Shown here one piece after another: positions 3,109-36,870 of a DNA stretch of 38,265 nucleotides; the stretch's first letter is position 1; each line of letters starts with the position of its first letter. The notes beneath the pieces were generated by a model. That model was not told the DNA's origin. It saw only the letters and a program-made list of their open reading frames with translations, and did no database searches. The stretch covers positions 1 through 38,265 of the IMG/VR virus record IMGVR_UViG_2917870735_000001; one strand, 5' to 3'. Made by a program: the position numbers and the translations under genes. This stretch comes from a virus (lineage: Duplodnaviria; Heunggongvirae; Uroviricota; Caudoviricetes).

Positions 3109-3708
3109 TCAGAATTTATAACCGACACCCACGATGAAACCGTCAGTGCGCCAGTCGTCACTGCCGGAACCTTCATATGCAAGGTCAATGGCCACGGATT
3201 CGGTCGGGTTAAACTGCACACCCGCCCCCCACGCCAGAGACGTGTTGCTGTGGCGGTTGTCATCGCTTCCGGTCAGCACATCATGCATTTTCCCCTTGTT
3301 GTCGGTCACCTGAAGATAATCCCCGGAAAAAGTCGAAACACGGCTGTAAGCCACACCCGCCATCGCATAAGCACTGAACCATTCATTCACGCGTACAGAC
3401 GGCCCCGCCATCACGCTGAACCAGCGGTTACGCACTGAATCTTCATGCCAGCGGGTATCGCTGTAACGGGTAATCTGGCGATTCTTGTCTCCTGCATAGC
3501 TGAATGACGTCACCAGCCCCAGCGTGTCCGTAAATTCATAACGGTATTTCACGTTAATGCCCTTCAGGTCATCGTTGCCGGGCATATCAGTATGGGACTG
3601 AAGATACCCGCCGCTTAGTGTGGACTGATGCTCTGCTGCACTCGCTGGCGTACCAGCGGCGACCAGCCAGACTACTGCAGACAGAATAACAGCACATAAT
3701 TTACGCAT
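3109..3708 (-). CDS. lom: Lom/Ail-family outer membrane beta-barrel protein
   Basis: 199 aa with signal peptide ([24 protein letters not shown]) and C-terminal ..[25 protein letters not shown] identical in pattern to remembered lambda Lom; located between J and stf as in lambda. Confidence 0.9.
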
Positions 3709-6700: not shown

Positions 6701-7174
6701 TTTGCCCTTAATGGTGATGTCTTTTTCCGTCACCCAGCCACCATTACGCTGTATCTGAACCAGCAGGCGGACTTCCGATGGATTCCTGTCCCCCTTTGAG
6801 GTGGTTTCCACCAGTGCCTGCACACCGAAGGTAAAGCGCAGACGGTCGATGTTTGCCGACGTGATGGTCCGGGTGATCGGCGTGTCATATTTCACTTCCG
6901 TACCCAGCACCGTCTCGGAGCCGGAGGATTCAAATCCCTCCGGCGGTGTCTGCTCCTGCTCACCTGCCCGGAACACCACCGTGACACCGGAGATGTTGGT
7001 ATTCCCCTCACTGTCCAGCACCGGTGTACTGTTCAGCAGCACGCTTTTTAATCCATCCACCGGACCTTCAACCGGCCCTTCGCTGATGGCATCAATCACA
7101 CTCAGTAACTGCGTGGATTTCAGGTTGTCCTTCGCTTCGCGCGGGGTATGCCCCTTACTGCTGCCTTTACCCAT
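3776..7174 (-). CDS. J: tail tip host-specificity protein J
   Basis: 1132 aa, the same length as lambda J; N-terminus [34 protein letters not shown].. and most of the body match remembered lambda J almost residue for residue; C-terminal about 150 aa (receptor-binding region) diverge. Confidence 0.95.
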
Positions 7175-7234
7175 TCGTCATGCTCCATAAACGACAAAAC
7201 CGCCCGCAGGCGGTTTCACATAAAATATTTTGCA

Positions 7235-7882
7235 TCATCGACCAATCACCACAACCTGACCACCGTCCCCTTCATCTGCCGTGCTGATCTCCTGAGATAC
7301 CACACGTGACCCCACGCGCATTTCACCATACAGAACGGGCAGAACATTGCCCTGGGCAACCATGTTATCCAGTGAGGAGAAATAGGTGTTCTGCTTACCG
7401 TTATCCGTTGTCTGTGTGCGGGGAGTTCTGGCTTTCGGTGCCAGCATCTGCGCCACACCGCCCAGGATCATACTGGCCCCTGCCGCATACATACCCGATA
7501 CAGCCGCGGCACCCAGCCAGCCCACAGGGTTCCACCATGCCACCGCAATCAGCGCAGCCCCCAGCACTGCCTGAAAAACACCACCACTTTTGGCACCCGC
7601 CAGACGCGGTACTATGTGGATCACGGCACCATTTGCCAGCGGCTCATTAAGACGGGCAGATAATTCGTTTTCGCCTGCATCACGCCCGGCAATGCGCACC
7701 TGATACCAGCCGTCGCTCAGTTTCTGGCGAAACGACGGTAGCTGCGTGGCCAGCGCCAGGATGGCTTCGGCCCCCGTTTTCACACGAAGGTCGATGCGGC
7801 GGCCAAATCGTTGCAAATCCCCGTAAAGGCAGATGCGTGCCATGCCCGGTGACGCCAGAGGGAGTGTGTGCGTCGCTGCCAT
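7235..7882 (-). CDS. I: tail assembly protein I
   Basis: N-terminus MAATHTLPLASPGMARICLYGDLQRFGRRIDLRVKTGAEA.. and C-terminus ..VSQEISTADEGDGGQVVVIGR match remembered lambda I; overlaps K 3' end as in lambda. Confidence 0.9.
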   Translation of the reverse strand: MAATHTLPLASPGMARICLYGDLQRFGRRIDLRVKTGAEAILALATQLPSFRQKLSDGWYQVRIAGRDAGENELSARLNEPLANGAVIHIVPRLAGAKSGGVFQAVLGAALIAVAWWNPVGWLGAAAVSGMYAAGASMILGGVAQMLAPKARTPRTQTTDNGKQNTYFSSLDNMVAQGNVLPVLYGEMRVGSRVVSQEISTADEGDGGQVVVIGR

Positions 7883-8523
7883 TTGTCGGTATACCTCTCT
7901 CGTTTGCTCAGTTGTTCAGGAATATGGTGCAGCAGCTCGCCATCACCACAGTAAATGGCGGCATGATTCGGCACCGATGAACCAAAGCAGCACAGCAGCA
8001 CATCGCCCGGTTGTGCCGCTGACAACGGCACCTGATACAGCCCCGTCGCCTCCATATTGTCAAGATAGAGATTCTGACCGTGACGCCACCAGTCATCCCC
8101 GCGATTAAAATCCGGCATCTCAATTCCCGCCAGATGGTAAGCATCCCGGAACAGCGTGTAACAGTCCGTCACCCCGTGCTCAAAGCGCCGCCCGGTGAGA
8201 TGCGGCACACAGCGGAATTTATGGATCGCCCCCCGGCAGACCAGCCACCACGGCAAATCACTCTGCACCTGCAGCCGCCGGTCGGCCTCACTCAGCCAGG
8301 GCAGACCACCGGGGTGGCTGTGGACCAGCGCCACAATCTCACCCTGCATCTCTGCCTGCAGCCAGTCCTCCGGAGCCATCCGGAAATACTCCTCCGGCTC
8401 ACCGGAAATATTCACGCAGGGAAAATATCTTTCCCCCTCCGGCGTTCTCACCACGAAGCCGCACGACTCCGCTGGCGCACATCGCCGGGCGTGCGCCAGA
8501 ATCGCTGATTCTGTCTCTGTCAT
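7780..8523 (-). CDS. K: tail assembly protein K (JAB/MPN plus NlpC/P60-like domains)
   Basis: Sequence ..AILAHARRCAPAESCGFVV..EIVALVHSHPGG.. matches remembered lambda K; HSHP metalloprotease-like motif present. Confidence 0.9.
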   Translation of the reverse strand: MTETESAILAHARRCAPAESCGFVVRTPEGERYFPCVNISGEPEEYFRMAPEDWLQAEMQGEIVALVHSHPGGLPWLSEADRRLQVQSDLPWWLVCRGAIHKFRCVPHLTGRRFEHGVTDCYTLFRDAYHLAGIEMPDFNRGDDWWRHGQNLYLDNMEATGLYQVPLSAAQPGDVLLCCFGSSVPNHAAIYCGDGELLHHIPEQLSKRERYTDKWQRRTHSLWRHRAWHASAFTGICNDLAAASTFV

Positions 8524-8528
8524 GGGAT

Positions 8529-9227
8529 TTACTGCGAAAGTTTGTTAATGGAAAGGAAGCCGCCAAAGTTGCCGACGTTATTGCGAAACTTACAGCCACT
8601 CAGGCATTTGCTACATTTATCCTTCGTGATATCGGACGTCGGCTGGTCATATTCATCCGCGACAGCCGGACCATTATAACCGCACTCATCACCGCGATAG
8701 GTCCAGGTGCAGGTGTTGGCCAGCATGATGCGCCCCGGAAAAACGGCACCATCCGTTTCCGTCGGTGTGGACAACACAAAAGAGGCACTGACCGCGCTCA
8801 GTTCGCTGCACTGCTCGATGCGCCAGCGGCTGATCACCTCCTGCTCCGGATCGGCGTCACTGTTTCCGTTGACGAAGTTCACCGCATCCAGAAAACGGGC
8901 GTAAACCTTACGCCTGACCACCGTTCCGCCGACCAGACTTTGCAGGTCTTCCGCCATCCCGGTGACCATGCCGTGCAGGTTAGAGACTTTCAGTGTTGGT
9001 CTTGCACTGGCTCCTTTGCCGTTCATCTCAAAGCCGCTTCCCTGAATAGGGTACGCCTGATACTGTCGCCCCTGCCAGGTGACCGACTCACCTTTTTCGT
9101 TCTGCTCATTACAGAAAAAATAACGCTCTCCGCCGACCTCTGTCAGATCGACTTCCCAGAGCACGACCAGCGCGGATTGCTCCGATTTTGTACACTCATT
9201 CAGTGTTTCCTGCTGTATATCCTGCAT
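8529..9227 (-). CDS. L: minor tail protein L
   Basis: 232 aa; MQDIQQETLNECT.. and C-terminal ..CSKCLSGCKFRNNVGNFGGFLSINKLSQ match remembered lambda L; ATG overlaps the M stop (ATGA). Confidence 0.9.
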   Translation of the reverse strand: MQDIQQETLNECTKSEQSALVVLWEVDLTEVGGERYFFCNEQNEKGESVTWQGRQYQAYPIQGSGFEMNGKGASARPTLKVSNLHGMVTGMAEDLQSLVGGTVVRRKVYARFLDAVNFVNGNSDADPEQEVISRWRIEQCSELSAVSASFVLSTPTETDGAVFPGRIMLANTCTWTYRGDECGYNGPAVADEYDQPTSDITKDKCSKCLSGCKFRNNVGNFGGFLSINKLSQ

Positions 9228-9526
9228 CAGTGAGTGACCTCTTCAAAGGTACAGTTAAAATCGGTATACATGGCATTATCCGAAATACTCCACTCCCTGC
9301 AGACAACCCGGACGGTCCTGTTGTATTTTGGCGGACGCCACAAAAAAGCACGCATCCCGGCATGACGGGATAAAAAACTGTCCAGCGTAGCGCGGGAATA
9401 TTCATCTGTGACCCGAAATACCGGTTTAAACGTTTTCAGATCCGCATTCAGACCACCAGCCCGTCGCTGTTCATATCCGTCACCGAACTTTACCGTAATA
9501 ACAGATGGCTTTCGTGTCGTCTCCAT
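9227..9526 (-). CDS. M: minor tail protein M
   Basis: Internal ATG at 9526 gives METTRKPSVITVKFGDGYEQRR.., matching the remembered lambda M N-terminus; the longer ORF to 9613 would overlap the tape measure 3' end and lacks an RBS. Confidence 0.8.
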   Translation of the reverse strand: METTRKPSVITVKFGDGYEQRRAGGLNADLKTFKPVFRVTDEYSRATLDSFLSRHAGMRAFLWRPPKYNRTVRVVCREWSISDNAMYTDFNCTFEEVTH

Positions 9527-9560
9527 CCCCTCGCGGGGGAGCCAGTTAAAAACTTCAGAC

Positions 9561-12500
9561 TCAGGCACTGCATAATCCTCCGTCCCGACGTGATGACTGC
9601 ATAATTGACACAACCCTGCTGTCGATCAGATCCACCAGCCCCCTGGCTGACTGCGTATCTATCTCGCCATTGCTCCCTTTATTCTGAATACTGATGTGAT
9701 ACACGGGAGAATAGACAAATCCCCCGCCACCACTCACATTCCCAATGGCTCTGACCCCTAGGGAGCCGTCCGCTGCCCGAGTCAGTGGCATGATAGCTTC
9801 AGGCCCGGCCTCGCCCATCAGCCCGGCACCTTTCGCAAAAGCAAAATACGTCGGTGTATCCACAATGGTGTTACTGTAAGCACTCAGATTTGCCGATGTG
9901 TAAACACCGCCTTTTGCGTTCGCTACTGCACCGGAAAGCCAGTCGCCAACACTACCAATCCATCCCCCCGCTCCCGACATTGTCCCGGAGAGTGATTTCA
10001 GCCCGTTAACAATGGCCGCGTTCATCAGGATTTTTGAAACTTCCTGAAGGATCGAACTCCCCCAGTTTCTCCAGTCCACAACGTTGCCGGCCAGTGCCTC
10101 AGAAATATTTGAAACCAGACCATCCATAGTGGAAACGACCGCATCTGCCGCTTGTGAAGCATAATCAGTGGCACTGTCTGCCCAGTTCGTCAGCCCCTCT
10201 TTGAGCCCGGCATTCCAGTTACTGCGTAAAGCATCGGCCTTTGCATAATAATCCTGCTGATCGTTGAGACGCTCCTCCAGATATTTTTCATTCAGCGTTT
10301 TTTCCTGTTTCCACAGGGCTTCTTCGATTTCTCCGGTCTGGTACTGTCTCAGCAACTCATTATTTTTCTGCTCAAACTCCTGTCGGATGTTCCACATTTC
10401 CTGAAGCCGCTCACGTATTCGTGTTCCGTCTCCATACCCTAACAACTGAGCCTCATTTGATGCCCTGACACTGGCGTTACTGTCCGCCAGGCTGCTTTCA
10501 TAAGCAGCAATTTGCTCACGAATTTTTTTCTGGTCGATGAGTGCTGCATTCTGTAAAAGGGTTTGTTTCTGCGCTTCTGATAAGGTTAATAATTCGCCCT
10601 GGCTGACCTGGTATTTCATCTTAGCCAGTTCAGTATTCTGTCCTGCCAGTGCTATTTGTTCTTTTTGTTGTTTAATCAGTCTGTTATAAGCATCTTCCGT
10701 TTTTTCTGCTTCCGATTTTCCACCACGTACTTTTGGCTTATTCGCCTGGTTGTTACGCCATGCTTCCAGCGCGTTGTTGATATAAGTTTGCCTTGCCGTC
10801 TGATAGGCATCCCCCACAAAACCGAGATCATCCGCTACATAGCCCAGACGAGTACGCTCACGCGCTTCCCCCTTCATACGGGATAAGGTCAGCTCTCGCT
10901 CAGTGTTATTCAGCGCGTTCTGCTGTTTATCATCCAGAGCAGCCTGTGGCAGCCGTAACGGTACATTCACCAGCCCCTGTCGCTGCTGAAGTAATTCATT
11001 ACCAAGCCCAAGAAGACGATTAAACTCGGTATGTTGGCCATTCATGATCAGTAATGACTGATATGCTTTGTTTTGTTCCGCTGCCTGTTGGCGGATCAGC
11101 ACCACTCGTCGTTCTTCCAGCCCGGCAAGCACATCCTGGATTGACTGGGCTTTTTCCTGCATTCCGGAAAGTCGGGACTGCTCAACAGCCAGCTGACTTG
11201 TTGCTTCTGCAAGCCCTTCTGTGACAGTTTTCACCGACGTCATGTGGTTAATCATAAAACCGTTATCGGTTGTCCAGCCCGGGTTTGCCAGGACATACTG
11301 ATAGCCAGCAATTTTTTCCTGTAAGGATTTAATCTTACTTTTCTGCTCGTCAATTAACCTGTTCTGCTCCTCCAGAGCCTGCCGCGTCTTTTCTTCATTA
11401 TCTGCCGCTTCAGGAAGTGACATTGCAGACGTTTTCTGGCGAATTTCGTCGATTGTTGCGGCATACTGACGCGCTGATTCTCTGGCCTGCTCCTGGTTCT
11501 GATACATTGTGTACCAGGCCGCCGCCCCCAGCATGACAAGTCCAGGCACACCACCAACCAGCCCCAGAGCACCACTTAACAACCGACTACTAACTGACGT
11601 AACGTTATTCAGCGTTGCCTGTGCCGCTGTTCTGGCGGCAATATTACGGGTAAGTGAAGCCTGTGCGGTTGCCAGTTTCGCTTCTGCTGCAGCCTGTTTT
11701 TCTGTACCACGGGCAGCCACAACCGCCTGCTGCGCACGATACAATGCCGCCCGCGCTCTGGCTGTTGCTATCTGTGTCCCTCTGAGCTGTGCCTCAGCAA
11801 GAGCCACTTCGTTTCTGGCAGCAGTGATTAACCCGGCAGTTGCAGAGCCCGCAGAAGACGCCATATTGCCAAAATATCGGGCTACACCAATTGCAACCAG
11901 AGCTCCCGCCGCCGTGGCAACCGTATCAATATTATTCGCAACACCATTCATTATTCCGGTAAGCGTTTTCGTTGCACCGCTGGCATCATTCGCACCACCA
12001 ACCCAGGCCATAAAGGCGTTTTCAACTTTGGTTGCAGAGGATGATACGGTATCAGGCATGGCTGCATATTCATCCCGCAGCGTACCAAGCTGGCTAATCA
12101 GTGCAGGAACAACCTTATCGGCGGTCAGCTTTCCATCATCCGCCATTGCCTTCAGATCTTTACGGGCAACCCCCATTCCTGCAGCCAGAGCACGAATAAC
12201 ACGATCACCGCTTTCATTTACTGAATTAAACTCTTCACCGCGCAGAACCCCTTGCGCCAGTGCCTGGCTGAACTGAGTGATCACCGAGCTGGCTTCCGCA
12301 GAACTGGCTCCGGACAATTTCAATCCTGTAGAAATGGCCTCGGTAACTTTCAGTACTTCCTCAGACCTGTAACCATATTCCCGCATGGAAGAAGCCGAAC
12401 GTGCAAAAAGACTGGCGTTATCAGCAAAAGCAGTACCCGTTCTCTGGCTGATCGCCATTAATTCGCGCTGTGATGCCTGGAAATCATCGCTGGACTGCGT

Positions 12501-22765: not shown

Positions 22766-23140
22766 TTATTCCGGTCGCTGGAGTTGCTCATGATGATACA
22801 GAGCGAGAATCAGGTCATAAGACCCTTGCCTGTCTTTGTAACCAGTTTTATCAACCAATTCAGCTTTACTGATTCCGGGTAAATCAAGAATCAGATTCGC
22901 AACTTCAATTGCCCTTTGGTACAACTTACCGCCCTTTTTCTCCCCATGCAGTGGTTTTACATTCTTGAGGTAACCTCTATCCGCCAGGGCGAGAAATGTT
23001 GCCCTTGGGCATATCTTCTTTCGTGACGATTCGCTTTCTGTAACCTCTGCGACAGCTGCATCCCATGCATCACGAGGAGGCATTGAGCTATCAGCAACCA
23101 AATGATAAGCGATTAAAGCGGCGCGCGCGTATTGAGACAT
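22766..23140 (-). CDS. hypothetical protein (no recognised domain)
   Basis: ORF of 124 aa from ATG 23140 (141 aa from ATG 23191); located between the spanin genes and the packaging module; soluble, no signal peptide. Confidence 0.45.
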   Translation of the reverse strand: MSQYARAALIAYHLVADSSMPPRDAWDAAVAEVTESESSRKKICPRATFLALADRGYLKNVKPLHGEKKGGKLYQRAIEVANLILDLPGISKAELVDKTGYKDRQGSYDLILALYHHEQLQRPE

Positions 23141-23178
23141 AATGCATCCATATACAAAAATCTCATGATAAGACTTTT

Positions 23179-23622
23179 CTAATATGAACACTGTGATCTC
23201 ACATACTCTTGCAGGCCATTCAATTGGTTAGTTATGGTTTCGATGCGCTCTCTGAGAACGAAATAATCCCGTTGAGCGGTGTCAGTAAGTCTGGGGCTGG
23301 AAGCATCATCCACGCCGGAGGCGGCGGTGGTTTTATGCATGTCCGGACAGACTGCTTTGACGTGCAGCCACTTACGACCAGCAGAAACATCAGCACGAAG
23401 ACTTTCGATAGTCGCGTTAGCATCAGCAAGCTCCTTTGTATATCTGGCATCGAGTTCAGCTACATTACTTTGACGTTTCTGCATGTCAGCGATAATGGAT
23501 GCGGCCTTATCGCGCTGCTTTTTGTAGGTGATGGCGTTATCACGGTAATGATTAACCGCCCATGACAGGCAGACGATGATGCAGATAACCAGAACGGAGA
23601 TAATCGCGGTGACTCTGCTCAT
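23179..23622 (-). CDS. Rz: i-spanin Rz
   Basis: 147 aa with N-terminal TM helix ([18 protein letters not shown]) and coiled-coil periplasmic domain; contains embedded Rz1 in another frame; follows the endolysin gene. Confidence 0.85.
23232..23423 (-). CDS. Rz1: o-spanin Rz1 (lipoprotein) embedded in Rz
   Basis: Embedded ORF with lipobox ..LLVVSGC followed by [22 protein letters not shown], matching remembered lambda Rz1; start taken at the internal ATG giving about 63 aa. Confidence 0.7.
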
Positions 23623-24098: not shown

Positions 24099-24425
24099 TT
24101 ACTCCTTCGAGCTACCAAATTTGTTACCGATTACTCGCATTGCAGCCCCACGAATAGCATCGACACCGATCAGCCCAACGCCGCCACCAATGGCAACAGA
24201 AAGAGATTTAGGCCATCCGACATACTCAAGAGCGGATGCAAAAGTCAGCGTCAGAGCACCACAGAGCAAAATCTCGAGCGTTTTTCGCTTCCAGCCACCA
24301 CCACCGCCAAAATAGGCAATGCGCAATCCAGCCATAACAATCGACATAATCACTGCGCCCAGTGGTGTGTCTCCACGCCACCAGCTCTGGAGCAAGTCCA
24401 GCCAGGTATTTGGGTTATGAGGCAT
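24099..24425 (-). CDS. holin (not lambda S-type)
   Basis: 108 aa with at least two hydrophobic TM segments and charged C-terminus; immediately upstream of the endolysin with 3-nt spacing. Confidence 0.7.
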   Translation of the reverse strand: MPHNPNTWLDLLQSWWRGDTPLGAVIMSIVMAGLRIAYFGGGGGWKRKTLEILLCGALTLTFASALEYVGWPKSLSVAIGGGVGLIGVDAIRGAAMRVIGNKFGSSKE

Positions 24426-24577
24426 TTGTAGTTATCTCTCACCTCGCTGATACAGCAGGTGCAAATTGAGGGAACATCATGTACCGCAAATCAGAAGCGG
24501 AAACGTCAAAGAAGCCGAACCAATGGATAACTGCGGAATAGGCCAGGCCCAACGAATCCCCAGCCACAGAAACGACA

Positions 24578-24599
24578 AAACCCGCTCGACGGCGGGTTT
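24578..24599 (-). terminator. hairpin with partial U-tract upstream of the holin (candidate tR'-like terminator of a short late leader)
   Basis: 8-bp stem aaacccgc / gcgggttt; on the minus strand followed by TGTCGTTTCTG. U-tract is weak. Confidence 0.3.
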
Positions 24600-24722
24600 A
24601 AGCTGTGTGGCGAAGTAACCACTCTTAACAGATTACAAGAATTTTTGCGGACCGCGTTAATGATTTTTAATCCCAAAGTCGTATTATTCGTTTTTTACTG
24701 TAGGAGTTAACAGGTTTATATT

Positions 24723-26054
24723 ATGTTAGATACACTATCTTTCACTGAACGTGACGAGTTCCAACGAAGAAACATCGCTGAAAATATCATCAAGTTGCTA
24801 AAACCAGAGGCAGACATTTCACCACTGGTAATAGACGGCGCATGGGGAACAGGGAAAACAGAATTTAGTATCAAACTGAAAAATCTCATTATTGAGCAAG
24901 AAACCGAATCTAAAGTTGTTTATATTGATGCCTTTAAAGGGGATCATGCAGAATCTCCATTACTTCTCATAACCTCTGCAATTGCTAGCATTTTGCCTGA
25001 GGAAGAAAAACAACACTTCATTAAGAGATCACTTCCTGCAATTCGATTTGGTTTAAAAACGGTACTAAAAGCTGGTGCAGGTTGGTTTTTACGACAGGAG
25101 GCTAGTGAAGTTGCCGAAGAATTCCAAGATGCGATGAAGAAAGCAAGCAATGCAGCAATAGATGGGACTATTGAAAATTTGCTTGAAGACCATATGGAAT
25201 CAGAGAAAAACATAAATTCACTTAAATCTTGCATCGAAAGTATTTCAGAAAATCAAAAGATAGTAATTATAATTGATGAATTAGACCGATGTAAGCCGAG
25301 TTTTTCAACAAATGTCATTGAAACAATAAAACACATTTTTGACATCAATAATGTCTTTTTTATTTTAGTTACAAACACAGAACAATTAAAAGCATCGATA
25401 AATCATATTTATGGTTATAGTATTAACTCACAAAAGTATCTTGACAAGTTTATAAAATATACCATCACGCTTCCAGACACATGTTTAATAAATGGTCACG
25501 TCGTATGTAAAACATCTGCTATATATTGGAATTACCTTGTAGACAAGACAAAATCACTAAATGAAATTAATAGTTTATCTGGTAGATTTATCCGTGATTT
25601 AATTCAACGAACCAACTTATCCTTACGTGAAACACAAACTTTTTCACGCAATCTTAACATTTTTCAACTGTTAAACGACGAGGAGTACAAAAGCAGTGCT
25701 CCTTTAATAAATAGGATCTTTGTCGTAGCTGTCTTCATACATTGCTTTGGTGACAAGGAAAAAATAAAACAAGAAATTACCGCTGAATCTATATCTCATT
25801 TAGCAGACCTGCTTAACATAAAAGAAATACCTTATTCTTATGAGAGAAGATCGCAAATTCCTGAAATATCTATTGTATTCTTCGGAATAATTAAAGACAG
25901 CATTACTCTTAATGCGCGATTTGCCCCTAAAAGTGATGAAGAACTTAAAAGATTCACAAATGTTTATACTAATTATGATCACCTAAATTTTTGGAGTACT
26001 ACACCCAGAGAGTTATTGATAAAATATATCAATCAAATGTCATTCATTCAGTAA
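24723..26054 (+). CDS. KAP-family P-loop NTPase
   Basis: 443 aa; Walker A GAWGTGKT (about residues 39-46) and the KAP-characteristic Walker B ..IVIIIDELDRC..; markedly AT-rich relative to flanking phage genes; opposite strand to the late operon; strong terminator immediately downstream. Confidence 0.8.
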   Translation: MLDTLSFTERDEFQRRNIAENIIKLLKPEADISPLVIDGAWGTGKTEFSIKLKNLIIEQETESKVVYIDAFKGDHAESPLLLITSAIASILPEEEKQHFIKRSLPAIRFGLKTVLKAGAGWFLRQEASEVAEEFQDAMKKASNAAIDGTIENLLEDHMESEKNINSLKSCIESISENQKIVIIIDELDRCKPSFSTNVIETIKHIFDINNVFFILVTNTEQLKASINHIYGYSINSQKYLDKFIKYTITLPDTCLINGHVVCKTSAIYWNYLVDKTKSLNEINSLSGRFIRDLIQRTNLSLRETQTFSRNLNIFQLLNDEEYKSSAPLINRIFVVAVFIHCFGDKEKIKQEITAESISHLADLLNIKEIPYSYERRSQIPEISIVFFGIIKDSITLNARFAPKSDEELKRFTNVYTNYDHLNFWSTTPRELLIKYINQMSFIQ

Positions 26055-26056
26055 AT

Positions 26057-26088
26057 AATACGCCCCTGCATGGGGCGTATTTTATTAA
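26057..26088 (+). terminator. rho-independent terminator after the KAP NTPase gene
   Basis: Perfect 10-bp stem aatacgcccc / ggggcgtatt with a 5-nt loop (26057..26081), followed by TTATT; overlaps the 3' end of Q on the other strand. Confidence 0.7.
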
Positions 26089-26450
26089 ACGTCCAAATCT
26101 AATGTTAGATCTAGCATGGAAAGGCAGCCATCAATAAATCCTTCGGCTAGCTGTATTTCTATACGTATCAATTTCTCATCCTTTCCACGCGCCTTTGCAA
26201 TCTTACGCTTGGATATTCTGTATAAATAATGTGCCACAAGAAGCGAATGCTCATAAGGTCTTTTTTGCTTTAGACGAGCAAGACAACCTTCAATAATTAA
26301 TGCATCACTATCCGAACAAGCCAAGCGTTTCTTGCTGGTATAGGGAAGAAGCCCTTTAAACCCAGCAGCTATAGGAGAATAGTCTACTCCTGAACTATCA
26401 CTCGCCGCCCATGCTCCCCAACGATCCAGAACCATCTGAATATCACGCAT
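26085..26450 (-). CDS. late-gene antiterminator Q-like protein
   Basis: About 121 aa from ATG 26450 (ORF track GTG at 26465); sequence MRDIQMVLDRWGAWAA.. resembles the Q-antiterminator family of phage-82-type prophages as I recall it; conserved position upstream of the lysis genes. Confidence 0.65.
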   Translation of the reverse strand: MRDIQMVLDRWGAWAASDSSGVDYSPIAAGFKGLLPYTSKKRLACSDSDALIIEGCLARLKQKRPYEHSLLVAHYLYRISKRKIAKARGKDEKLIRIEIQLAEGFIDGCLSMLDLTLDLDV

Positions 26451-26467
26451 CAACTTTCTCCACAAAA

Positions 26468-33040: not shown

Positions 33041-33160
33041 AACTAACCGCCCCTGCGGGGGCATCTATTGAAACGTAATTGACTCAATAATCGCCGGATG
33101 GCGAGGGCTTCCTTTTCCCAAAATTCAGCGCGGTGCAGCGCATATAAAGTGGAGAACGAA

Positions 33161-33697
33161 ATGTCATTTATTAAAACTTTTTCCGGGAAGCATTTTTATT
33201 ATGACAAGATAAATAAAGACGACATCGTTATTAACGATATCGCGGTTTCCCTTTCAAATATCTGTCGCTTTGCTGGTCATCTTTCACACTTCTACAGCGT
33301 TGCCCAACATGCGGTGCTTTGCAGCCAGCTGGTACCGGAGGAGTTTGCTTTTGAAGCGTTAATGCATGATGCAACAGAAGCGTATTGCCAGGACGTCCCC
33401 GCACCACTGAAACGCCTTCTTCCTGACTATAAACGGATGGAAGAAAAAATAGACACCGTAATCCGTGAGAAATACGGGTTACCCCCGGTTATGAGTACGC
33501 CCGTGAAATATGCCGATCTCATCATGCTGGCAACCGAACGCCGCGATCTCGGGCTTGATGATGGCTCTTTCTGGCCTGTACTGGAAGGCATCTCGGCAAC
33601 AGAGATGTTCAAAGTGATTTCACTGGCACCGGGCCATGCCTACGGGATGTTTATGGAACGCTTCAACGAGTTATCGGAGTTACGCAAATGCGCATAA
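33161..33697 (+). CDS. HD-domain phosphohydrolase (YfbR-like 5'-deoxynucleotidase family)
   Basis: ATG at 33161 with GGAGA RBS; H..HD signature (..HAVLCSQLV..ALMHDATEAYCQDVPAPLKRLL..) parallels the remembered E. coli YfbR pattern (..YHDASEVLTGDLPTPVK..). Confidence 0.65.
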   Translation: MSFIKTFSGKHFYYDKINKDDIVINDIAVSLSNICRFAGHLSHFYSVAQHAVLCSQLVPEEFAFEALMHDATEAYCQDVPAPLKRLLPDYKRMEEKIDTVIREKYGLPPVMSTPVKYADLIMLATERRDLGLDDGSFWPVLEGISATEMFKVISLAPGHAYGMFMERFNELSELRKCA

Positions 33698-34566
33698 CTC
33701 ATGTAGTTAGTTTTTCTGGCGGGAGAACATCAGCATATCTTGTTCACCTGATGGAAGAACAAAGAAAGGCTGGTAACAGCGTCTGCTACATCTTTATGGA
33801 TACCGGTTGCGAACATCCGCTGACATATCGCTTTATTCGGGAGGTTGTGAAGTTCTGGGACAGACCACTAACTGTGTTGCAGGTAAATATCAATCCAGAG
33901 CTTGGGCAGCCAAATGGTTATACGGTATGGGAACCAAAGGATATTCAGACGCGAATGCCGGTGCTCAAGCCGTTTATGGACATGGTTAAAAAATATGGCA
34001 CGCCATACATCGGCGGCGAGTTCTGCACTGACAGATTAAAACTCGTCCCCTTCACCAAATACTGCGATGACCATTTCGGGAGAGGGAATTACATCACATG
34101 GCTGGGTATTCGCGCAGATGAACCCCGCAGACTGAAACCGAAATCGGGTGTCCGGTATCTTGCCGAGCTGTCAGATTTTGATAAGTCGGATGTTATCCGG
34201 TGGTGGCGTAAACAACCTTTTGATTTGCAAATCCCGGAGCACCTCGGGAACTGTGTTTTCTGCATCAAAAAGTCAACGCAAAAGCTGGGGCTTGCATGTA
34301 AAGACGAACCGGGTCTGATGCGAGTTTTTAAGGAACTGGTTACGGGTAAACACGTCAGAGATGGTCATCGCAGGACAGGTAAAGACGTTATGTACCGTTG
34401 TCACCTGACGCTTGACGGGATTGCCAGAATGTATACCGACAGTGACTACAAAAATTTGTATCAGGCGATGGTGCAGGCCAGGCGATTTGATACCGGGTCG
34501 TGTTCAGAGTCATGTGAAATCTTTGGTGATCAATTGGAATTGAAATTCGAAGAGGTAGGGGTATGA
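33688..34566 (+). CDS. PP-loop ATP pyrophosphatase superfamily protein (PAPS reductase-like)
   Basis: 292 aa; N-terminal PP-loop-like motif ..VVSFSGGRTSAY..; GGAG RBS; start overlaps HD gene 3' end by 10 nt. Confidence 0.6.
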   Translation: MRITHVVSFSGGRTSAYLVHLMEEQRKAGNSVCYIFMDTGCEHPLTYRFIREVVKFWDRPLTVLQVNINPELGQPNGYTVWEPKDIQTRMPVLKPFMDMVKKYGTPYIGGEFCTDRLKLVPFTKYCDDHFGRGNYITWLGIRADEPRRLKPKSGVRYLAELSDFDKSDVIRWWRKQPFDLQIPEHLGNCVFCIKKSTQKLGLACKDEPGLMRVFKELVTGKHVRDGHRRTGKDVMYRCHLTLDGIARMYTDSDYKNLYQAMVQARRFDTGSCSESCEIFGDQLELKFEEVGV

Positions 34567-35089: not shown

Positions 35090-35322
35090 TACGTAGTAGT
35101 TCAGATGTGAGCTAACACATCTATGGCACAGAGCTAAACCTAATCAGACTGTCTACTCTGTGCCTAAAGTGGATGTTGCAAATACCACCAGCGAAGAACC
35201 AAAATTAATGGTGCAGGATGATGCAGATAATTCTGATGAAAACACCCAGAATTTGTTACAATAAGTACATAGCATTAAAGTTTGTTATGAATGTCTAAAT
35301 GTAGCTTAATTCAGAGGTGATA

Positions 35323-36870
35323 ATGGGTGCCAATGGTTTACTAGCAGTCTTCGCCATACTTATTGCTTGGTATACTCTCTTAACGGATGAGAGACGTGTT
35401 GATTTAAGGTTACGCATATCTAAAATTAATATTATATTCATTATCTTTTTTATATCAACAATCTTAACAATTATATATTCTAAGGTATTGCTAAGTATTT
35501 TTCCGATAAAACCGATCCCTTGGATACTCGGTTTTAACGAAGATACATTGGCTTTTACTTGTCTTTGTATCATAATTACATTTTTTGGAATTAAAGTACT
35601 GGGCAAAAGACTACCAAAAGCAAACCTTACCTGTTGGATCAGCGTTTCAGAAATGTATCTGCGCGCAAAAAAAATAGAACAACTGGGATATCTTTTTGAT
35701 AAATATCACGAACAGCTATTTAATATAATTAGTAATAAAAAATGGTATGTTCGCGTACATAATTACTTAGTCCCTTCATTATCTTCCATTATAATGGATA
35801 AAGAGAAGGCAAAAAAAATACGATTCAAAAAAGCTAGAAAATTTCTGTCAAAGTTTTTCCCTTATGAAGACAAAAGACAAAATGCTATTCAATTAAATAT
35901 ATCCAATCTTCTGAAATCAAAGGTTTTTTCACATTATTTAATTGATACTTACCCTCACGTAGCTATGAAGGCCACCTGCTTACAGCTTAGATATAATTAT
36001 GAGTATAATACAAATTTCTTTACGTATTTAATATCTAACCCAAACAGCATTATGTATAGGGAGTTACGAGACAACCAAAATCGTTCATATACAGGGGAGT
36101 ATGCACTCGACGAAAGTAATGCCTTGCTTAATTTTTATTTAAATGATATTCGTATGGCGATAAATTTAGAAATATGGAAACCTGTGGGTGATTATGTCAT
36201 TAGCTACATAAAAAAACAAAAAGGGAGTTCTTGCTTTTACAATCATCCAGATAATTACTATTCAAGTAGTGATGAGCGTTGGGAATGCCCAATCTTCGTT
36301 GGATTGACGTTTTTCGATGTTATGGTATCTACAGCAATATTCAAACGCTCAAAAAACAATATGTGGCTCATGTATTATCGTTTTTTCCTAAAGGAAATTC
36401 TTGAGAGCTATGAAAAATCTAGCAGCATAGATATAAATAGAGAGTTCCCCATGCGATTTGATTATTTAATATATGAGCTAATCAGCCGTTGTAATATATG
36501 GGTAGGTGCAACAGAACACCTCAATTATGATAACTGGACAACAGAAGAGAAAGAGCAATCCCCAGAGTTCTTTGCCTCTACAACCTTGGGGGAAATGATG
36601 TATCTGATTATTACTTCAGAAAAAATGCATAACAATCAAAAGACATATCTTTTAGAAATCATTATTCAAAGAATGAACTCTCTTGATCAAAACAAGAAAC
36701 CTGCTTACTCCAAGGAAATCTTCAACAATCTTATCCGAGCATTCTCCCCTACTTCCATTGATATAAATGCAGTAAATAAATTACGGCAACTTTATAAAGG
36801 TGTTGATCATGTTCTAAAAAACAAAAATTCAACTTTTGAAGTTGAACTATCAAAATATCTTGACCAATAA
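35323..36870 (+). CDS. AT-rich membrane-anchored protein of unknown function (3 predicted N-terminal TM helices plus about 400-aa soluble domain)
   Basis: ATG at 35323 with AGAGGTGA RBS (ORF track GTG at 35317); GC content far below the prophage average; hydrophobic segments about residues 5-22, 36-58, 70-92; no recognisable catalytic motif; located between xis-like gene and integrase, convergent with int. Confidence 0.7.
   Translation: MGANGLLAVFAILIAWYTLLTDERRVDLRLRISKINIIFIIFFISTILTIIYSKVLLSIFPIKPIPWILGFNEDTLAFTCLCIIITFFGIKVLGKRLPKANLTCWISVSEMYLRAKKIEQLGYLFDKYHEQLFNIISNKKWYVRVHNYLVPSLSSIIMDKEKAKKIRFKKARKFLSKFFPYEDKRQNAIQLNISNLLKSKVFSHYLIDTYPHVAMKATCLQLRYNYEYNTNFFTYLISNPNSIMYRELRDNQNRSYTGEYALDESNALLNFYLNDIRMAINLEIWKPVGDYVISYIKKQKGSSCFYNHPDNYYSSSDERWECPIFVGLTFFDVMVSTAIFKRSKNNMWLMYYRFFLKEILESYEKSSSIDINREFPMRFDYLIYELISRCNIWVGATEHLNYDNWTTEEKEQSPEFFASTTLGEMMYLIITSEKMHNNQKTYLLEIIIQRMNSLDQNKKPAYSKEIFNNLIRAFSPTSIDINAVNKLRQLYKGVDHVLKNKNSTFEVELSKYLDQ

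What the first reader, a model, noticed from the sequence alone, without database searches (positions are those of the whole stretch)
24426..26090. KAP-family P-loop NTPase moron inserted between antiterminator Q and the holin, antisense to the late operon
The only plus-strand gene in the late region encodes a 443-aa protein with Walker A GAWGTGKT and the KAP-type Walker B IVIIIDELDRC. It is AT-rich, has its own perfect 10-bp-stem terminator (26057..26088) and occupies the Q-to-S slot where lambdoid phages carry lysogenic-conversion cargo (stx genes in Stx phages). The KAP family is named in part after PifA, the F-plasmid protein that aborts T7 infection, so a prophage-borne KAP NTPase is a plausible phage-exclusion factor. 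The layout also poses a puzzle: only 30 bp separate the Q stop from the KAP stop, so the Q-dependent late promoter must lie either inside the KAP 3' end (an extended -10-like TGATATATT reads on the minus strand at 26031..26023) or in the 297-bp region upstream of the holin (tR'-like hairpin at 24578..24599). In the first case late transcription runs antisense through the whole KAP gene.
Basis: partly seen in the sequence, partly recalled or inferred. Interest (0 to 1): 0.75.

Follow-up and report, generated by a model that had tools for sequence, protein, structure and literature searches.

The report
Prophage KAP ATPase defence-candidate cargo gene
A lambdoid E. coli prophage carries a foreign, self-contained gene for a KAP-type ATPase (a known but untested anti-phage candidate, PADLOC PDC-S20) in a swap-slot between the late-gene activator Q and the late promoter, a slot that in related prophages holds many other defence-like genes.

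Summary
ORF 24723..26054 (+) encodes a 443-aa KAP-family P-loop NTPase with the stated Walker motifs, about 33% GC against about 52% in the flanks, and a 10-bp hairpin in the 30 bp between its stop and the Q stop. It matches PADLOC's untested candidate PDC-S20 full length (E 3.5e-176). It resembles PifA and QatA only in the NTPase core, and RADAR RdrA and BREX BrxC in fold.

A conserved 92-bp block (24668..24577, minus strand) abuts Q in empty-site phages and always lies on the late-gene side of the cargo. It is homologous to the 933W/Sp5 pR' region. By homology the late start is about 24623 (-), so late transcription runs away from KAP.

The Q-to-pR' gap is a hotspot. Of 76 related loci, 7 are empty and 69 carry 13 classes of low-GC cargo. 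Three further classes occur in other loci, and 14 of the 16 are antisense to Q. They include TIR, HNH, NYN, PDC-M53, DUF262+HEPN and the DLP12 nmpC porin.

KAP relatives also sit between CI and integrase in P2/186-like prophages and persist in prophage remnants. dN/dS is 0.16-0.27, with a fast-evolving C-terminus. The most likely function is a lysogen-expressed anti-phage sensor ATPase, but this is unproven. Verdict: a new member of a known kind.

The parts
24723..26054 (+). KAP-family P-loop NTPase gene (443 aa), PADLOC PDC-S20 type. Walker A at nt 24837-24860, Walker B/DELDRC at nt 25260-25292. Variable helical C-terminal region from about residue 264/318 (nt about 25512/25674 onward).
24669..26084 (.). 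Cargo module (1,416 bp, GC 0.33) inserted between the Q stop codon and the late-promoter block. It holds the KAP promoter region, the KAP ORF and the terminator hairpin.
   Evidence: Flank mapping against empty-site phage 1720a-02 and against phages with alternative cargo. 76-locus survey. Composition.
24682..24687 (+). Candidate -10 hexamer (TATTAT) of the KAP promoter. The predicted start is about 24694, with a weak SD (AGG) about 9 nt before the ATG. This promoter lies back-to-back with pR'.
   Evidence: A TAnnnT hexamer is kept at the same position in KAP modules whose proteins are only about 65% identical (TATCGT in L064, L089, L091). The consensus scanner did not call it. Inference only.
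26057..26081 (.). Perfect 10-bp GC-rich hairpin between the convergent KAP and Q stops. Candidate bidirectional terminator that insulates the cargo from Q/pR read-through and Q from the KAP transcript.
   Evidence: Sequence. The enclosing stretches fold at -18.3 (+ strand, 26045-26100) and -20.6 (- strand, 26100-26040) kcal/mol. A comparable, unrelated GC hairpin follows the Q stop in all 15 other cargo modules folded, spanning about 11 cargo classes, and in DLP12.
24577..24668 (-). Conserved Q-cognate late regulatory block (pR' region plus leader plus first intrinsic terminator).
   Evidence: It abuts the Q stop in empty sites and lies on the late-gene side of the cargo in 76 of 76 loci where both ends are on the contig. 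The motif occurs once per locus, and once in the window against 0.02 expected. It is homologous to the annotated pR' region of 933W-type phages.
24647..24655 (-). Invariant palindrome GCGGTCCGC in the promoter spacer, a candidate Q-binding element.
   Evidence: Identical in all 70 Q loci of this allele group that were scanned for it. Replaced by GCGTACGC, ACGATCGT or ACGTACGT where the Q allele is 45-53% identical and differs in the HTH region. Inference.
24630..24635 (-). Predicted pR' -10 hexamer (TAATCT). The predicted late transcription start is about 24623 (-).
   Evidence: A TAnnnT hexamer is conserved directly upstream of GTTAAGAGTGG in nearly all aligned loci; three empty-site loci read CAGTAT. 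It aligns with the annotated pR' -10 TATCAT of SC370. In Sakai Sp5, the A 7 nt downstream of TATCAT lies 258 nt from the second terminator's T-tract, matching the dRNA-seq/Term-seq distance in PMC7547250.
24568..24599 (-). tR'-like intrinsic terminator: hairpin 24599..24578 at about +25..+46 of the late transcript, then a T-tract.
   Evidence: Scanner call. RNAalifold finds 7 pairs, 6 with compensatory double changes across 24 distinct sequences. Caveat: in Sp5 the mapped stable 3' end is at a second terminator at +258.
26085..26465 (-). Antiterminator Q of the 933W/QuuD family (Pfam PF06530). RefSeq homologues start about 4 codons later.
   Evidence: Pfam E 7.9e-51. 45% identical to 933W-type Q. 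Weakly similar to Q21 structures, E 0.12.
24099..24425 (-). Lambda-family holin S, the first late gene downstream of the block.
   Evidence: Pfam Phage_holin_3_1 and TIGR01594.

Best explanation
The gene is horizontally acquired, self-contained accessory cargo of a lambdoid E. coli prophage. It encodes a soluble KAP-family (AAA+/STAND-like) NTPase of the PDC-S20 type.

Shown:
- The module sits in a recombinational swap-slot between the Q stop codon and the Q-dependent late promoter pR'.
- It is oriented against Q and bounded by a hairpin on the Q side.
- It lies outside the late transcription unit.

Inferred:
1. The gene is transcribed from its own weak sigma-70 promoter (-10 at 24682-24687), back-to-back with pR'. 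It would therefore be made in the lysogen independently of Q.
2. The protein acts as a single-gene anti-phage (or anti-mobile-element) immunity factor.
3. The conserved NTPase core is an ATP-driven switch, probably ring-forming like RdrA.
4. The fast-evolving helical C-terminal region recognises a component of an infecting phage.
5. Activation stops the infection, either by abortive infection or by direct ATP-dependent interference.

No effector domain is recognisable, so the killing or blocking step is the least certain part.
For: Family: Pfam KAP 237.5 bits. PDC-S20 HMM matched full length, E 3.5e-176. PDC systems are candidates found embedded in BREX, DISARM and type I RM loci.

Sensor-like C-terminus: mean identity 23% for residues 318-443 against about 60% for the core. 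dN/dS is 0.28-0.43 against 0.07-0.14.

Context:
- The slot holds 16 cargo classes, 14 of them antisense. They include TIR-TM, HNH CBASS-effector-like, NYN, PDC-S42-like, PDC-M53 and DUF262+HEPN.
- Relatives at 44-46% identity sit between CI and integrase of P2/186-like prophages, on the CI strand.
- The Q-KAP pair persists at 45-65% identity in Citrobacter and Cronobacter, and intact in prophage remnants, including a Salmonella SPI-12-type locus.

Precedent: other KAP NTPase single-gene proteins block phages in a Walker B-dependent way and need their C-terminal region (PMC13552941). A KAP single-gene system, 'Reve', from the P4 hotspot is also protective (PMC13586616).

Promoter geometry.
Against: - No phenotype exists for this protein or for any PDC-S20 member. 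There are no hits for the name in the library, and PDCs are described as untested.
- The protein has no recognisable effector domain, no TM segment and no partner gene, unlike RdrA, QatA and BrxC.
- The promoter assignment for KAP is weak. The scanner does not call it, and the -35 is poor.
- AT-rich genes of this kind are often H-NS-silenced (general knowledge), so expression in the lysogen is not shown.
- Guilt by association with hotspot neighbours is indirect. The same slot also holds a porin (nmpC) and methyltransferases.
- The 80 surveyed loci are the closest relatives of this Q, so they are not an unbiased sample.
Confidence: 0.6

Rival explanations
1. Lysogenic-conversion cargo that benefits the host in some way other than phage defence, such as in-host fitness or stress physiology. 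The ATPase would act on a host process.
For: A 91%-identical copy lies in a Salmonella phage remnant with the gene order of SPI-12, next to an SspH2-like NEL effector and an oafA-like gene. The neighbouring Q there (STM2239) is SsrB-regulated and affects in-host fitness (PMC7380047). STM2238 ('putative phage protein') appears in a PreA regulon list. The same slot carries the nmpC/lc-type porin in DLP12.
Against: The protein is cytosolic, with no signal peptide or TM segment. The family is tied to BREX/DISARM/RM loci by how PDCs were defined and to prophage accessory slots. Other cargo in the slot is mostly nuclease, TIR or HEPN type. That STM2238 equals KAP is inferred from gene order only, and the primary SPI-12 paper could not be read.
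Confidence: 0.15
2. A phage life-cycle function for this prophage itself, for example an initiator- or loader-like AAA+ protein acting on phage DNA replication, or control of induction and lysis timing.
For: Fold hits after RdrA and BrxC are Orc1/Cdc6, DnaA, TnsC, MuB and DnaC-type initiator/loader ATPases. The gene sits at the early/late boundary.
Against: The gene is absent from sibling prophages that share the early region at about 95.6% identity and carry other cargo in the slot. Empty sites exist. The gene has foreign composition, also occurs in P2/186-like prophages in a different slot, and is kept in remnants that lack replication and structural genes.
Confidence: 0.08
3. One reading: the Q-dependent late promoter lies in the KAP 3' end or at the Q stop, so late transcription runs antisense through the whole KAP gene.
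For: A TGATATATT match exists on the minus strand at 26031..26023. A weak promoter-like match lies at 26108..26079 (-). Antiterminated read-through from the early operon through Q could still cross KAP during lytic growth.
Against: The sequence right of the cargo is not conserved among cargo types beyond the Q stop. The conserved Q-associated block with the allele-matched palindrome, -10, leader and covarying hairpin lies left of the cargo in every locus and abuts Q in empty sites. It is homologous to the mapped or annotated pR' of 933W/Sp5. Promoter-like hits inside KAP are at chance level.
Confidence: 0.03
4. A neutral or decaying passenger with no current function.
For: Some copies in the survey are disrupted: L005 and L007 show split or truncated ORFs. 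The gene is rare in E. coli (50 of 5,426 genomes).
Against: dN/dS is 0.16-0.27 overall and 0.07-0.14 in the core. The catalytic motifs are invariant across 38-91% identity. The family is broad: 270 clusters at E <= 1e-30.
Confidence: 0.05

Closest known systems
PADLOC PDC-S20 (single-gene 'phage defence candidate'; Payne et al., bioRxiv 10.1101/2024.01.29.577857)
   Same: Full-length HMM match: PDLC04956, residues 3-442 on model positions 4-449 of 450, E 3.5e-176. Three sister PDC-S20 models also match. Single gene, about 445 aa.
   Different: PDC-S20 was defined from copies embedded in BREX, DISARM or type I RM loci and is untested. Here the context is a prophage Q-to-pR' slot, and in relatives a P2/186-like CI-int slot.
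PifA of the F plasmid (T7 exclusion), a founding KAP member
   Same: KAP NTPase core with the same Walker A and DELDR Walker B. The PADLOC PifA model matches residues 7-252 (E 4.4e-18).
   Different: Only the first 255 of 720 PifA model positions match. The long PifA C-terminal part is absent, and the gene is chromosomal/prophage rather than on F. It is not an orthologue.
RADAR RdrA and BREX BrxC (defence-system ATPases)
   Different: RdrA (about 800 aa) works with the RdrB deaminase, and BrxC works within multi-gene BREX. This protein is half the size and has no partner gene in any context seen. Sequence identity is 9-14%.
EF_KAP and other KAP NTPase single-gene defences (PLoS Biol 2026, PMC13552941); 'Reve' (NAR 2026, PMC13586616)
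   Same: Architecture of a KAP NTPase domain plus a C-terminal region of unknown function. In those proteins the Walker B motif and the C-terminal region are both needed for defence.
   Different: EF_KAP is modelled with two TM helices, and this protein has none.
nmpC in DLP12 (the PA-2 lc porin is recalled as an analogous case) and stx morons of lambdoid phages
   Same: nmpC occupies the identical slot in DLP12: antisense to quuD, with a GC hairpin after the quuD stop, and upstream of the homologous pR' block. This is the classical moron layout.
   Different: stx genes lie downstream of pR'/tR', on the late strand, under Q control. KAP is upstream of pR' and outside Q control.
P2/P4 prophage defence hotspots (Rousset et al. 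2022, PMC9122126)
   Same: Conserved flanks, discrete interchangeable low-GC cargo, known defence genes among the cargo, and empty sites.
   Different: The element is different (lambdoid, with a 933W/QuuD-family Q) and so is the position (between Q and its own promoter). There is a strong orientation bias and a hairpin in every module folded. I found no description of this slot as a defence hotspot in the searchable library.

Membership tests
KAP family P-loop NTPase (Pfam PF07693) | Profile match above the curated threshold across the whole domain | tested here: met
   237.5 bits against a cut-off of 20. Residues 15-317 match model positions 1-292 of 293.
KAP family P-loop NTPase (Pfam PF07693) | Walker A GxxGxGK[ST] and Walker B hhhhDE(L)DR | tested here: met
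   GAWGTGKT (residues 39-46) and IVIIIDELDRC (residues 180-190). G42, G44, K45, D185, E186, D188 and R189 are invariant in 51 homologues.
KAP family P-loop NTPase (Pfam PF07693) | Transmembrane helices inserted within the NTPase domain (present in many but not all KAP proteins; my own knowledge of Aravind et al. 2004) | tested here: not met
   Kyte-Doolittle 19-residue maximum is 1.6, and no segment exceeds it. The insert 113-155 between the Walker motifs is helical or disordered in the model (pLDDT below 50) yet well conserved. This is a soluble variant.
PADLOC PDC-S20 | Full-length match to a PDC-S20 HMM, as a single gene | tested here: met
   PDLC04956 E 3.5e-176, residues 3-442. There is no conserved partner gene across contexts.
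PADLOC PDC-S20 | Demonstrated anti-phage activity | not testable with these tools
   PDCs are described as untested candidates. The library has no paper hit for the name.
PifA (F-plasmid T7 exclusion) | Full-length similarity to PifA, including its C-terminal two-thirds | tested here: not met
   Only model positions 13-255 of 720 match. The protein is 443 aa.
QatA (Qat system) | Equivalog-level score and QatBCD neighbours | tested here: not met
   NCBIfam 35 bits against a cut-off of 600. The neighbours are Q and the holin.
RADAR RdrA | An adjacent RdrB adenosine deaminase and an ATPase of about 800-900 aa | tested here: not met
   The fold is similar, but there is no partner gene in the module and the protein is 443 aa.
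Lambdoid Q-dependent late regulatory cassette (Q gene, pR' with QBE, pause element, terminator, late genes; defined in bioRxiv 10.1101/651190) | Promoter plus terminator unit that travels with Q and immediately precedes the late genes | tested here: met
   The block is present once per locus, downstream of Q, and adjacent to Q in empty sites. The hairpin shows covariation. The block is homologous to the annotated pR' of SC370 and consistent with the 258-nt PR'-tR' distance in Sp5.
Lambdoid Q-dependent late regulatory cassette | A Q-binding element specific for the Q allele | tested here: inconclusive
   The palindrome in the promoter spacer changes with the Q allele in four allele groups. That is few independent events, and there is no binding data.
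Lambdoid Q-dependent late regulatory cassette | Experimentally mapped start site and sigma-dependent pause | not testable with these tools
   The start at about 24623 (-) is inferred by homology only. No pause element could be assigned.
stx-type Q-controlled late-operon moron | Located downstream of pR'/tR' on the late strand | tested here: not met
   KAP is upstream of the pR' block and on the opposite strand. stx is downstream of it.
Prophage defence hotspot (in the sense of the P2/P4 hotspots) | Conserved flanks with interchangeable cargo that includes recognised defence genes, plus empty sites | tested here: met
   Of 76 loci, 7 are empty and 69 carry 13 cargo classes. Three more classes occur in other loci. 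Hits include TIR-TM 1.8e-57, PDC-M53A 2.1e-32 and PDC-M53B 2.8e-54, PDC-S42 7.6e-29, HNH effector 4.8e-21, NYN, and DUF262+HEPN.

The most novel reading that the evidence does not exclude
Two linked claims. (1) The gap between the Q stop codon and pR' in lambdoid prophages with 933W/QuuD-family antiterminators is a general, orientation-locked defence hotspot. Each cargo module brings its own hairpin terminator and fires back-to-back with the constitutively active late promoter. (2) The PDC-S20 KAP protein is an effector-less, RdrA-like ring ATPase that confers immunity on its own. It would use a hypervariable C-terminal sensor and a mechanism not yet seen in defence ATPases, for example ATP-driven sequestration or remodelling of a phage protein or DNA, or ATP depletion. 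Most of the other cargo families in the slot match no known system (the 340-aa family in 12 loci, the DUF6731-like + TM pair in 20 loci, the 379+142-aa pair and others). They would then be new defence systems.
Probability: 0.3. Interest if true: 0.7.

Novelty: new member of a known kind. Interest (0 to 1): 0.45.

Why it matters
If the KAP protein is shown to block phages, it would validate a widespread untested candidate family: 270 clusters at 50% identity at E <= 1e-30 across Enterobacterales, including the ETEC reference strain H10407 and a Salmonella SPI-12-type locus. It would also give a minimal model, a 443-aa soluble protein with no effector domain and no partner, for how KAP/RdrA-like ATPases sense and stop infection.

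Separately, the Q-to-pR' slot is a practical place to look for new defence genes. It is easy to recognise because the flanks are conserved and a 35-nt motif occurs once per locus. In a small sample it already yielded about ten cargo families with no match to known systems.

The layout also corrects a common assumption. Not everything between Q and S is Q-controlled like stx. Cargo upstream of pR' is insulated from late transcription, which matters for predicting when such genes are expressed.

Tried and rejected
1. Late promoter inside or right of KAP: rejected on comparative grounds.
2. An alternative model in which the TAnnnT hexamer is the sigma-dependent pause element, with the true -10 in the A-tract and the -35 in cargo DNA. 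Rejected after the block proved homologous to the annotated SC370 pR', and the Sp5 geometry reproduced the published 258-nt PR'-tR' distance.
3. A canonical -35 could not be assigned. The spacing from the homologous '-35' to the -10 would be 17, 19 or 20 bp depending on palindrome length. This is left open.
4. No sigma-dependent pause element could be identified with confidence.
5. Rfam (gathering threshold) and tRNA scans of the window found nothing.
6. A genome-contig scan with the single KAP protein returned nothing confirmed, probably because there is one genome per species and only close relatives can be found that way.
7. No sequence relative of KAP has a solved structure.
8. The name PDC-S20 returns no paper. 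The supplements of the P2/P4 hotspot paper are not held. Vassallo et al. do not mention KAP.
9. The primary SPI-12 paper (Tomljenovic-Berube 2013) could not be fetched by DOI, PMID or a guessed PMC id. The STM2238 = KAP equation therefore rests on gene order alone.
10. Coordinates in Sy et al. refer to an older Sakai record. Only the PR'-tR' distance could be used, not absolute positions.
11. A separate fold search of the C-terminal domain was not attempted, because fragments of homologues cannot be submitted.
Full report

Yes. The window has an ORF at 24723..26054 on the + strand encoding 443 aa. It contains GAWGTGKT at residues 39-46 and IVIIIDELDRC at residues 180-190. GC content is 0.32 across 25001-26000, against 0.50-0.57 in the flanking kilobases.

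The gene is convergent with the antiterminator Q gene (26085..26465, -). Exactly 30 bp separate the two stop codons. That interval holds a perfect 10-bp stem (26057-26066 / 26072-26081), and the surrounding stretch folds on either strand at -18.3 and -20.6 kcal/mol. The simple terminator scanner did not list this hairpin because the T-run after the full stem is short. I therefore call it a terminator-like bidirectional hairpin, not a proven terminator.

Upstream of KAP lie 297 bp and then the lambda-family holin (24099..24425, -). Within them the scanner calls a minus-strand terminator at 24599..24578.

The rest of the window is a lambdoid prophage: integrase, a CI-like S24 repressor, an HK97-type capsid gene, TerL, an HNH gene and tail fibre genes.

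The same Q-KAP-holin arrangement is found in 42 of 5,426 complete E. coli genomes, including ETEC H10407. The KAP gene is found in 50, always on the chromosome. RefSeq already labels it 'KAP family NTPase'.

**2. What the protein is**

- Pfam places it in KAP_NTPase at 237.5 bits (cut-off 20) over residues 15-317.
- PADLOC's model PDLC04956 for the candidate system PDC-S20 matches it end to end (E 3.5e-176). Three sister PDC-S20 models also match.
- The PifA model matches only the NTPase core (positions 13-255 of 720, E 4e-18). QatA matches weakly: PADLOC E 4e-12, and NCBIfam 35 bits against a cut-off of 600.
- PHROGs files it in family 8614, of unknown function.
- PDC systems are 145 candidates that Payne et al. 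predicted because copies are embedded inside BREX, DISARM or type I RM loci. Their authors and later users describe them as untested. The name PDC-S20 returns no paper in the library.

The family is broad. 2,377 proteins score E <= 1e-5 among the 8,000 candidates the word-indexed search scored. In the exhaustive search, 270 clusters at 50% identity score E <= 1e-30. Nearly all are 440-470 aa, and they come from Escherichia, Salmonella, Citrobacter, Enterobacter, Klebsiella, Yersinia, Serratia, Kosakonia and Cronobacter.

An AlphaFold2 model built on 51 homologues has pLDDT 81.4 and pTM 0.77. It shows a P-loop alpha/beta core, a low-confidence insert at residues 113-155 between the Walker motifs, and an all-helical region from residue 264 to the end. 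No transmembrane segment is predicted. This is therefore a soluble KAP variant. Classical KAP proteins carry TM helices at the place where this insert sits.

Conservation is very uneven along the protein. Mean identity to the window protein is about 59-64% for residues 1-263, 39% for 264-317 and 23% for 318-443. All invariant residues lie before position 310. Pairwise dN/dS against E. coli and Salmonella alleles is 0.16-0.27 overall. It is 0.07-0.14 in the core and 0.28-0.43 in the C-terminal part. The gene is therefore maintained by selection, and its C-terminus evolves several-fold faster. That pattern is typical of a specificity or sensor domain.

**3.

Comparison with related phages answers this.

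- *Empty site.* In phage 1720a-02, window 24577-24668 aligns directly against the Q stop codon.
- *Alternative cargo.* Phages cdtI and SfII have different two-gene cassettes in place of KAP. These are also antisense to Q, and the same block follows them.
- *Survey.* I fetched the 80 IMG/VR loci closest to this Q. In all 76 where both ends are on the contig, the block lies downstream of Q. It is 0-7 bp from the Q stop in 7 loci, and 820-3,100 bp of cargo precedes it in 69 loci.
- *Specificity.* A 35-nt motif from the block occurs exactly once per locus, always on the Q strand. It occurs once in the window against 0.02 expected.

Read on the late strand, the block consists of:
1. an A-tract;
2. 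an invariant palindrome, GCGGTCCGC (24655..24647);
3. about 11 variable bases;
4. a TAnnnT hexamer (TAATCT, 24635..24630);
5. an almost invariant GTTAAGAGTGGTTACTTCGCCACA;
6. a hairpin whose stem sequence varies while pairing is kept (7 pairs, 6 with compensatory double changes in 24 distinct sequences);
7. a T-tract.

The leader and hairpin half of the block is 81-91% identical to the region just downstream of Q in many phages, including 933W-type Stx phages. The SC370 record annotates pR' there as GTTTAC, 17 bp, TATCAT, directly upstream of GATAAGAGTGGTTAC. That is the counterpart of the TAnnnT hexamer in the window. Its Q protein is 45% identical to the window's Q (E 1e-35).

In Sakai Sp5, the A 7 nt downstream of TATCAT lies 258 nt from the T-tract of the second terminator. 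That equals the PR'-to-tR' distance measured by dRNA-seq and Term-seq in PMC7547250. By homology the window's late start is therefore about 24623 on the minus strand, and the hairpin spans about +25 to +46. Late transcription runs from there towards the holin, away from KAP.

One caveat applies. In Sp5 the mapped stable 3' end is the second terminator at +258, not the first hairpin. How efficiently the first hairpin terminates is therefore unknown. In the window it is the only terminator-like element before the holin. In Cronobacter relatives the only T-tailed hairpin I noted by eye lies about 170 nt into the leader.

A by-product concerns the palindrome in the promoter spacer, which changes with the Q allele:

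| Q allele group | Identity to window Q | Palindrome |
|---|---|---|
| Window type | 73-86% | GCGGTCCGC |
| SfII and the 18SZHZ655Rt prophage | 47-53% | GCGTACGC |
| 933W type | 45% | ACGATCGT |
| DLP12 QuuD | 47% | ACGTACGT |

The alleles differ mainly in the predicted helix-turn-helix region. This makes the palindrome a good candidate for the Q-binding element, at the place where lambda and 21 have theirs (framework from bioRxiv 10.1101/651190). It rests on four allele groups only, and there are no binding data.

**4. The slot is a cargo hotspot**

The cargo module in the window is 24669..26084, 1,416 bp at GC 0.33. The 76 surveyed loci break down as follows:

| Cargo class | Loci |
|---|---|
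| Empty | 7 |
| KAP (two copies only 39-75% identical in protein) | 12 |
| cdtI-type pair: about 313 aa (the cdtI member matches DUF6731) + a small hydrophobic protein | 20 |
| 340-aa protein with no hit | 12 |
| Three-gene set whose large protein matches PDC-S42 (E 7.6e-29) | 6 |
| HNH protein matching CBASS endonuclease effectors and PDC-M68A | 4 |
| TIR protein matching PADLOC TIR-TM (E 1.8e-57) | 4 |
| NYN-domain protein | 3 |
| 379+142-aa pair with no hit | 3 |
| Singletons, including a ClpP-like SDH protease | 5 |

Three further classes come from other loci:
- SfII carries PDC-M53 (PDC-M53A E 2.1e-32, PDC-M53B E 2.8e-54).
- A sibling prophage shares the window's early region at 95.6% identity. 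It carries DUF262, a HEPN-like nuclease and a cytosine methyltransferase.
- DLP12 of E. coli K-12 has the nmpC porin gene in this exact place. It is antisense to quuD, has a GC hairpin after the quuD stop, and has the homologous pR' block between nmpC and essD.

That makes 16 cargo classes. Fourteen are antisense to Q and two (L066, L078) are sense. All are low in GC (0.32-0.44). All 16 modules I folded, covering about 12 of the classes, have an unrelated GC-rich hairpin right after the Q stop. The 80 loci are the nearest relatives of this Q and share ancestry. The counts therefore describe diversity, not independent events.

This slot is distinct from the stx slot, which lies downstream of pR'/tR' on the late strand. 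I found no paper describing the Q-to-pR' gap as a defence hotspot. The library is limited, so this is absence of evidence only.

**5. Other contexts of the family**

- The 65%-identical Citrobacter protein and the 45%-identical Cronobacter protein are again convergent with a PF06530 Q gene, with the pR' block between KAP and the late genes.
- Some Cronobacter copies lie in short remnants that keep only DUF968, Q, KAP and lysis genes.
- The 91%-identical Salmonella copy (a cluster of 2,139 member sequences) lies in a remnant next to a 788-aa NEL/LRR effector and an oafA-like gene. This is the gene order of SPI-12, whose Q gene STM2239 is discussed in PMC7380047. By order, KAP would be STM2238, but I could not read the primary paper.
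[quoted passage not shown] In coliphage 186 that strand is the lysogenic transcript (my own knowledge).

Two unrelated prophage types thus carry the family in accessory slots, and remnants keep it intact. Both facts point to a benefit for the lysogen.

**6. How it most likely works**

*Shown:*
- family membership;
- intact and selected catalytic motifs;
- a fast-evolving C-terminus;
- a fold closest to defence ATPases;
- a self-contained module outside the late transcription unit;
- a slot rich in defence-type cargo.

*Inferred:*
1. The gene is expressed in the lysogen from its own promoter. A TAnnnT hexamer (TATTAT, 24682-24687) is kept at the same place in modules whose proteins are about 65% identical. 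It lies about 71 bp from the predicted pR' start and points the other way. The -35 is poor and the scanner does not call this promoter.
2. The protein is a single-gene immunity factor. Its C-terminal domain senses a phage component, and its ATPase core, probably as a ring like RdrA, switches on an anti-phage state.

*Precedent:* other KAP NTPase single-gene proteins protect against phages, need Walker B and need their C-terminal region (PMC13552941). A KAP single-gene system from the P4 hotspot, 'Reve', is also protective (PMC13586616).

*Unknown:* the effector step. The protein has no nuclease, TIR, protease or membrane domain and no partner gene. Candidates are ATP depletion, sequestration or remodelling of a phage protein, filament formation on phage DNA (the initiator/loader-like fold), or recruitment of a host factor. 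I put 0.6 on the overall defence reading.

**7. Rivals**

- *A non-defence host-fitness role (0.15).* The SPI-12 context and the porin precedent in the same slot keep this alive.
- *A role in the phage's own cycle (0.08).* This is unlikely. Sibling prophages lack the gene, empty sites exist and remnants retain it.
- *A neutral passenger (0.05).* The dN/dS values contradict this.
- *Late transcription through KAP (0.03).* The comparative data contradict this. Antiterminated read-through from the early operon across the hairpin during lytic growth remains possible and was not tested.

**8. Novelty and verdict**

The gene is already annotated as a KAP NTPase and already catalogued as an untested defence candidate. 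The finding is therefore a new member of a known kind.

This analysis adds the following:
- the exact anatomy of the module;
- the recognition that the Q-to-pR' gap is a recurrent, orientation-biased cargo slot that also explains nmpC in DLP12;
- a candidate Q-binding palindrome that co-varies with the Q allele;
- evidence that the KAP C-terminus behaves like a sensor.

Interest is moderate (0.45). It is a good experimental lead and a useful slot for finding new defence genes, but not a surprise to specialists.

Noticed in passing
window 35317-36870 (+): A second low-GC island (0.31-0.35) next to the integrase holds a 517-aa ORF with no Pfam, PADLOC or PDB match, only PHROG 13820 of unknown function. 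A hypothetical gene of matching size and position is annotated in the sibling prophage (L095 16003-17550). It is another candidate accessory or defence cargo gene.
   Followed up: partly
window 24647-24655 (-); L003 about 3147-3154; L096 about 498-505; L098 about 4697-4704: The palindrome in the pR' spacer changes with the Q allele: GCGGTCCGC, GCGTACGC, ACGATCGT and ACGTACGT. The -10, leader and hairpin stay conserved. This is a candidate Q-binding element for the 933W/QuuD Q family.
   Followed up: partly
L097 769-790 and 975-1003 (Sakai Sp5); window 24599-24578: The conserved first hairpin with its T-tract, at about +25..+46 of the late transcript, looks like a strong terminator. Yet published Term-seq places the stable 3' end of the Sp5 leader (StxS) at a second terminator at +258. 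Either the first hairpin is leaky or the short RNA escaped detection. The window has no second terminator before the holin.
   Followed up: partly
KAP residues 113-155 (window about 25059-25187): The insert between Walker A and Walker B has pLDDT below 50 in the model, yet it is the best-conserved part of the protein (64% mean identity; conserved motif LKAGAGWxLKQ). It lies where classical KAP proteins have TM helices. It may be a flexible functional element, for example a pore loop, a membrane-peripheral helix or an oligomer contact.
   Followed up: no
L026, L048-L054, L063, L065, L067, L075, L083 (cargo between Q and the pR' block); also L016-L022, L028-L034: Two abundant cargo families in the slot match no defence model. 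One is a protein of about 340 aa with no Pfam or PADLOC hit (12 loci). The other is a pair of about 313 aa plus a small hydrophobic protein of about 150 aa (20 loci); its cdtI-phage member matches Pfam DUF6731. A 379+142-aa pair and several singletons are also unmatched. They are candidate new defence systems by position.
   Followed up: partly
L098 2030-4326 and 4708-4776 (E. coli K-12 DLP12): The IS5-disrupted porin gene nmpC occupies the same Q-to-pR' slot. It is antisense to quuD, with a GC hairpin after the quuD stop, and the homologous pR' block lies about 120 bp upstream of essD.
   Followed up: yes
L099 (Salmonella, GCA_016958335.1) 6375-12428: A 91%-identical KAP copy lies in a prophage remnant with the SPI-12 gene order: SspH2-like NEL effector, DUF968, Q, KAP, holin, and an oafA-like gene nearby. 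By order it would be STM2238, next to the SsrB-regulated Q gene STM2239. The primary paper could not be read.
   Followed up: partly
window 22766-23191 (-): A DUF6979 gene (PHROG 5039, unknown function) sits in a dip to 41% GC between the Rz/Rz1 lysis genes and the HNH/terminase genes. This is another small accessory position.
   Followed up: no
window 33098-34566 (+): A YfbR-like HD-domain gene is followed by a PAPS-reductase-like gene that also hits the PADLOC SspD model (E 7e-15). Both are on the early-left side of the prophage. I read them as ordinary yfdR-region early genes rather than an Ssp system, but this was not examined.
   Followed up: no
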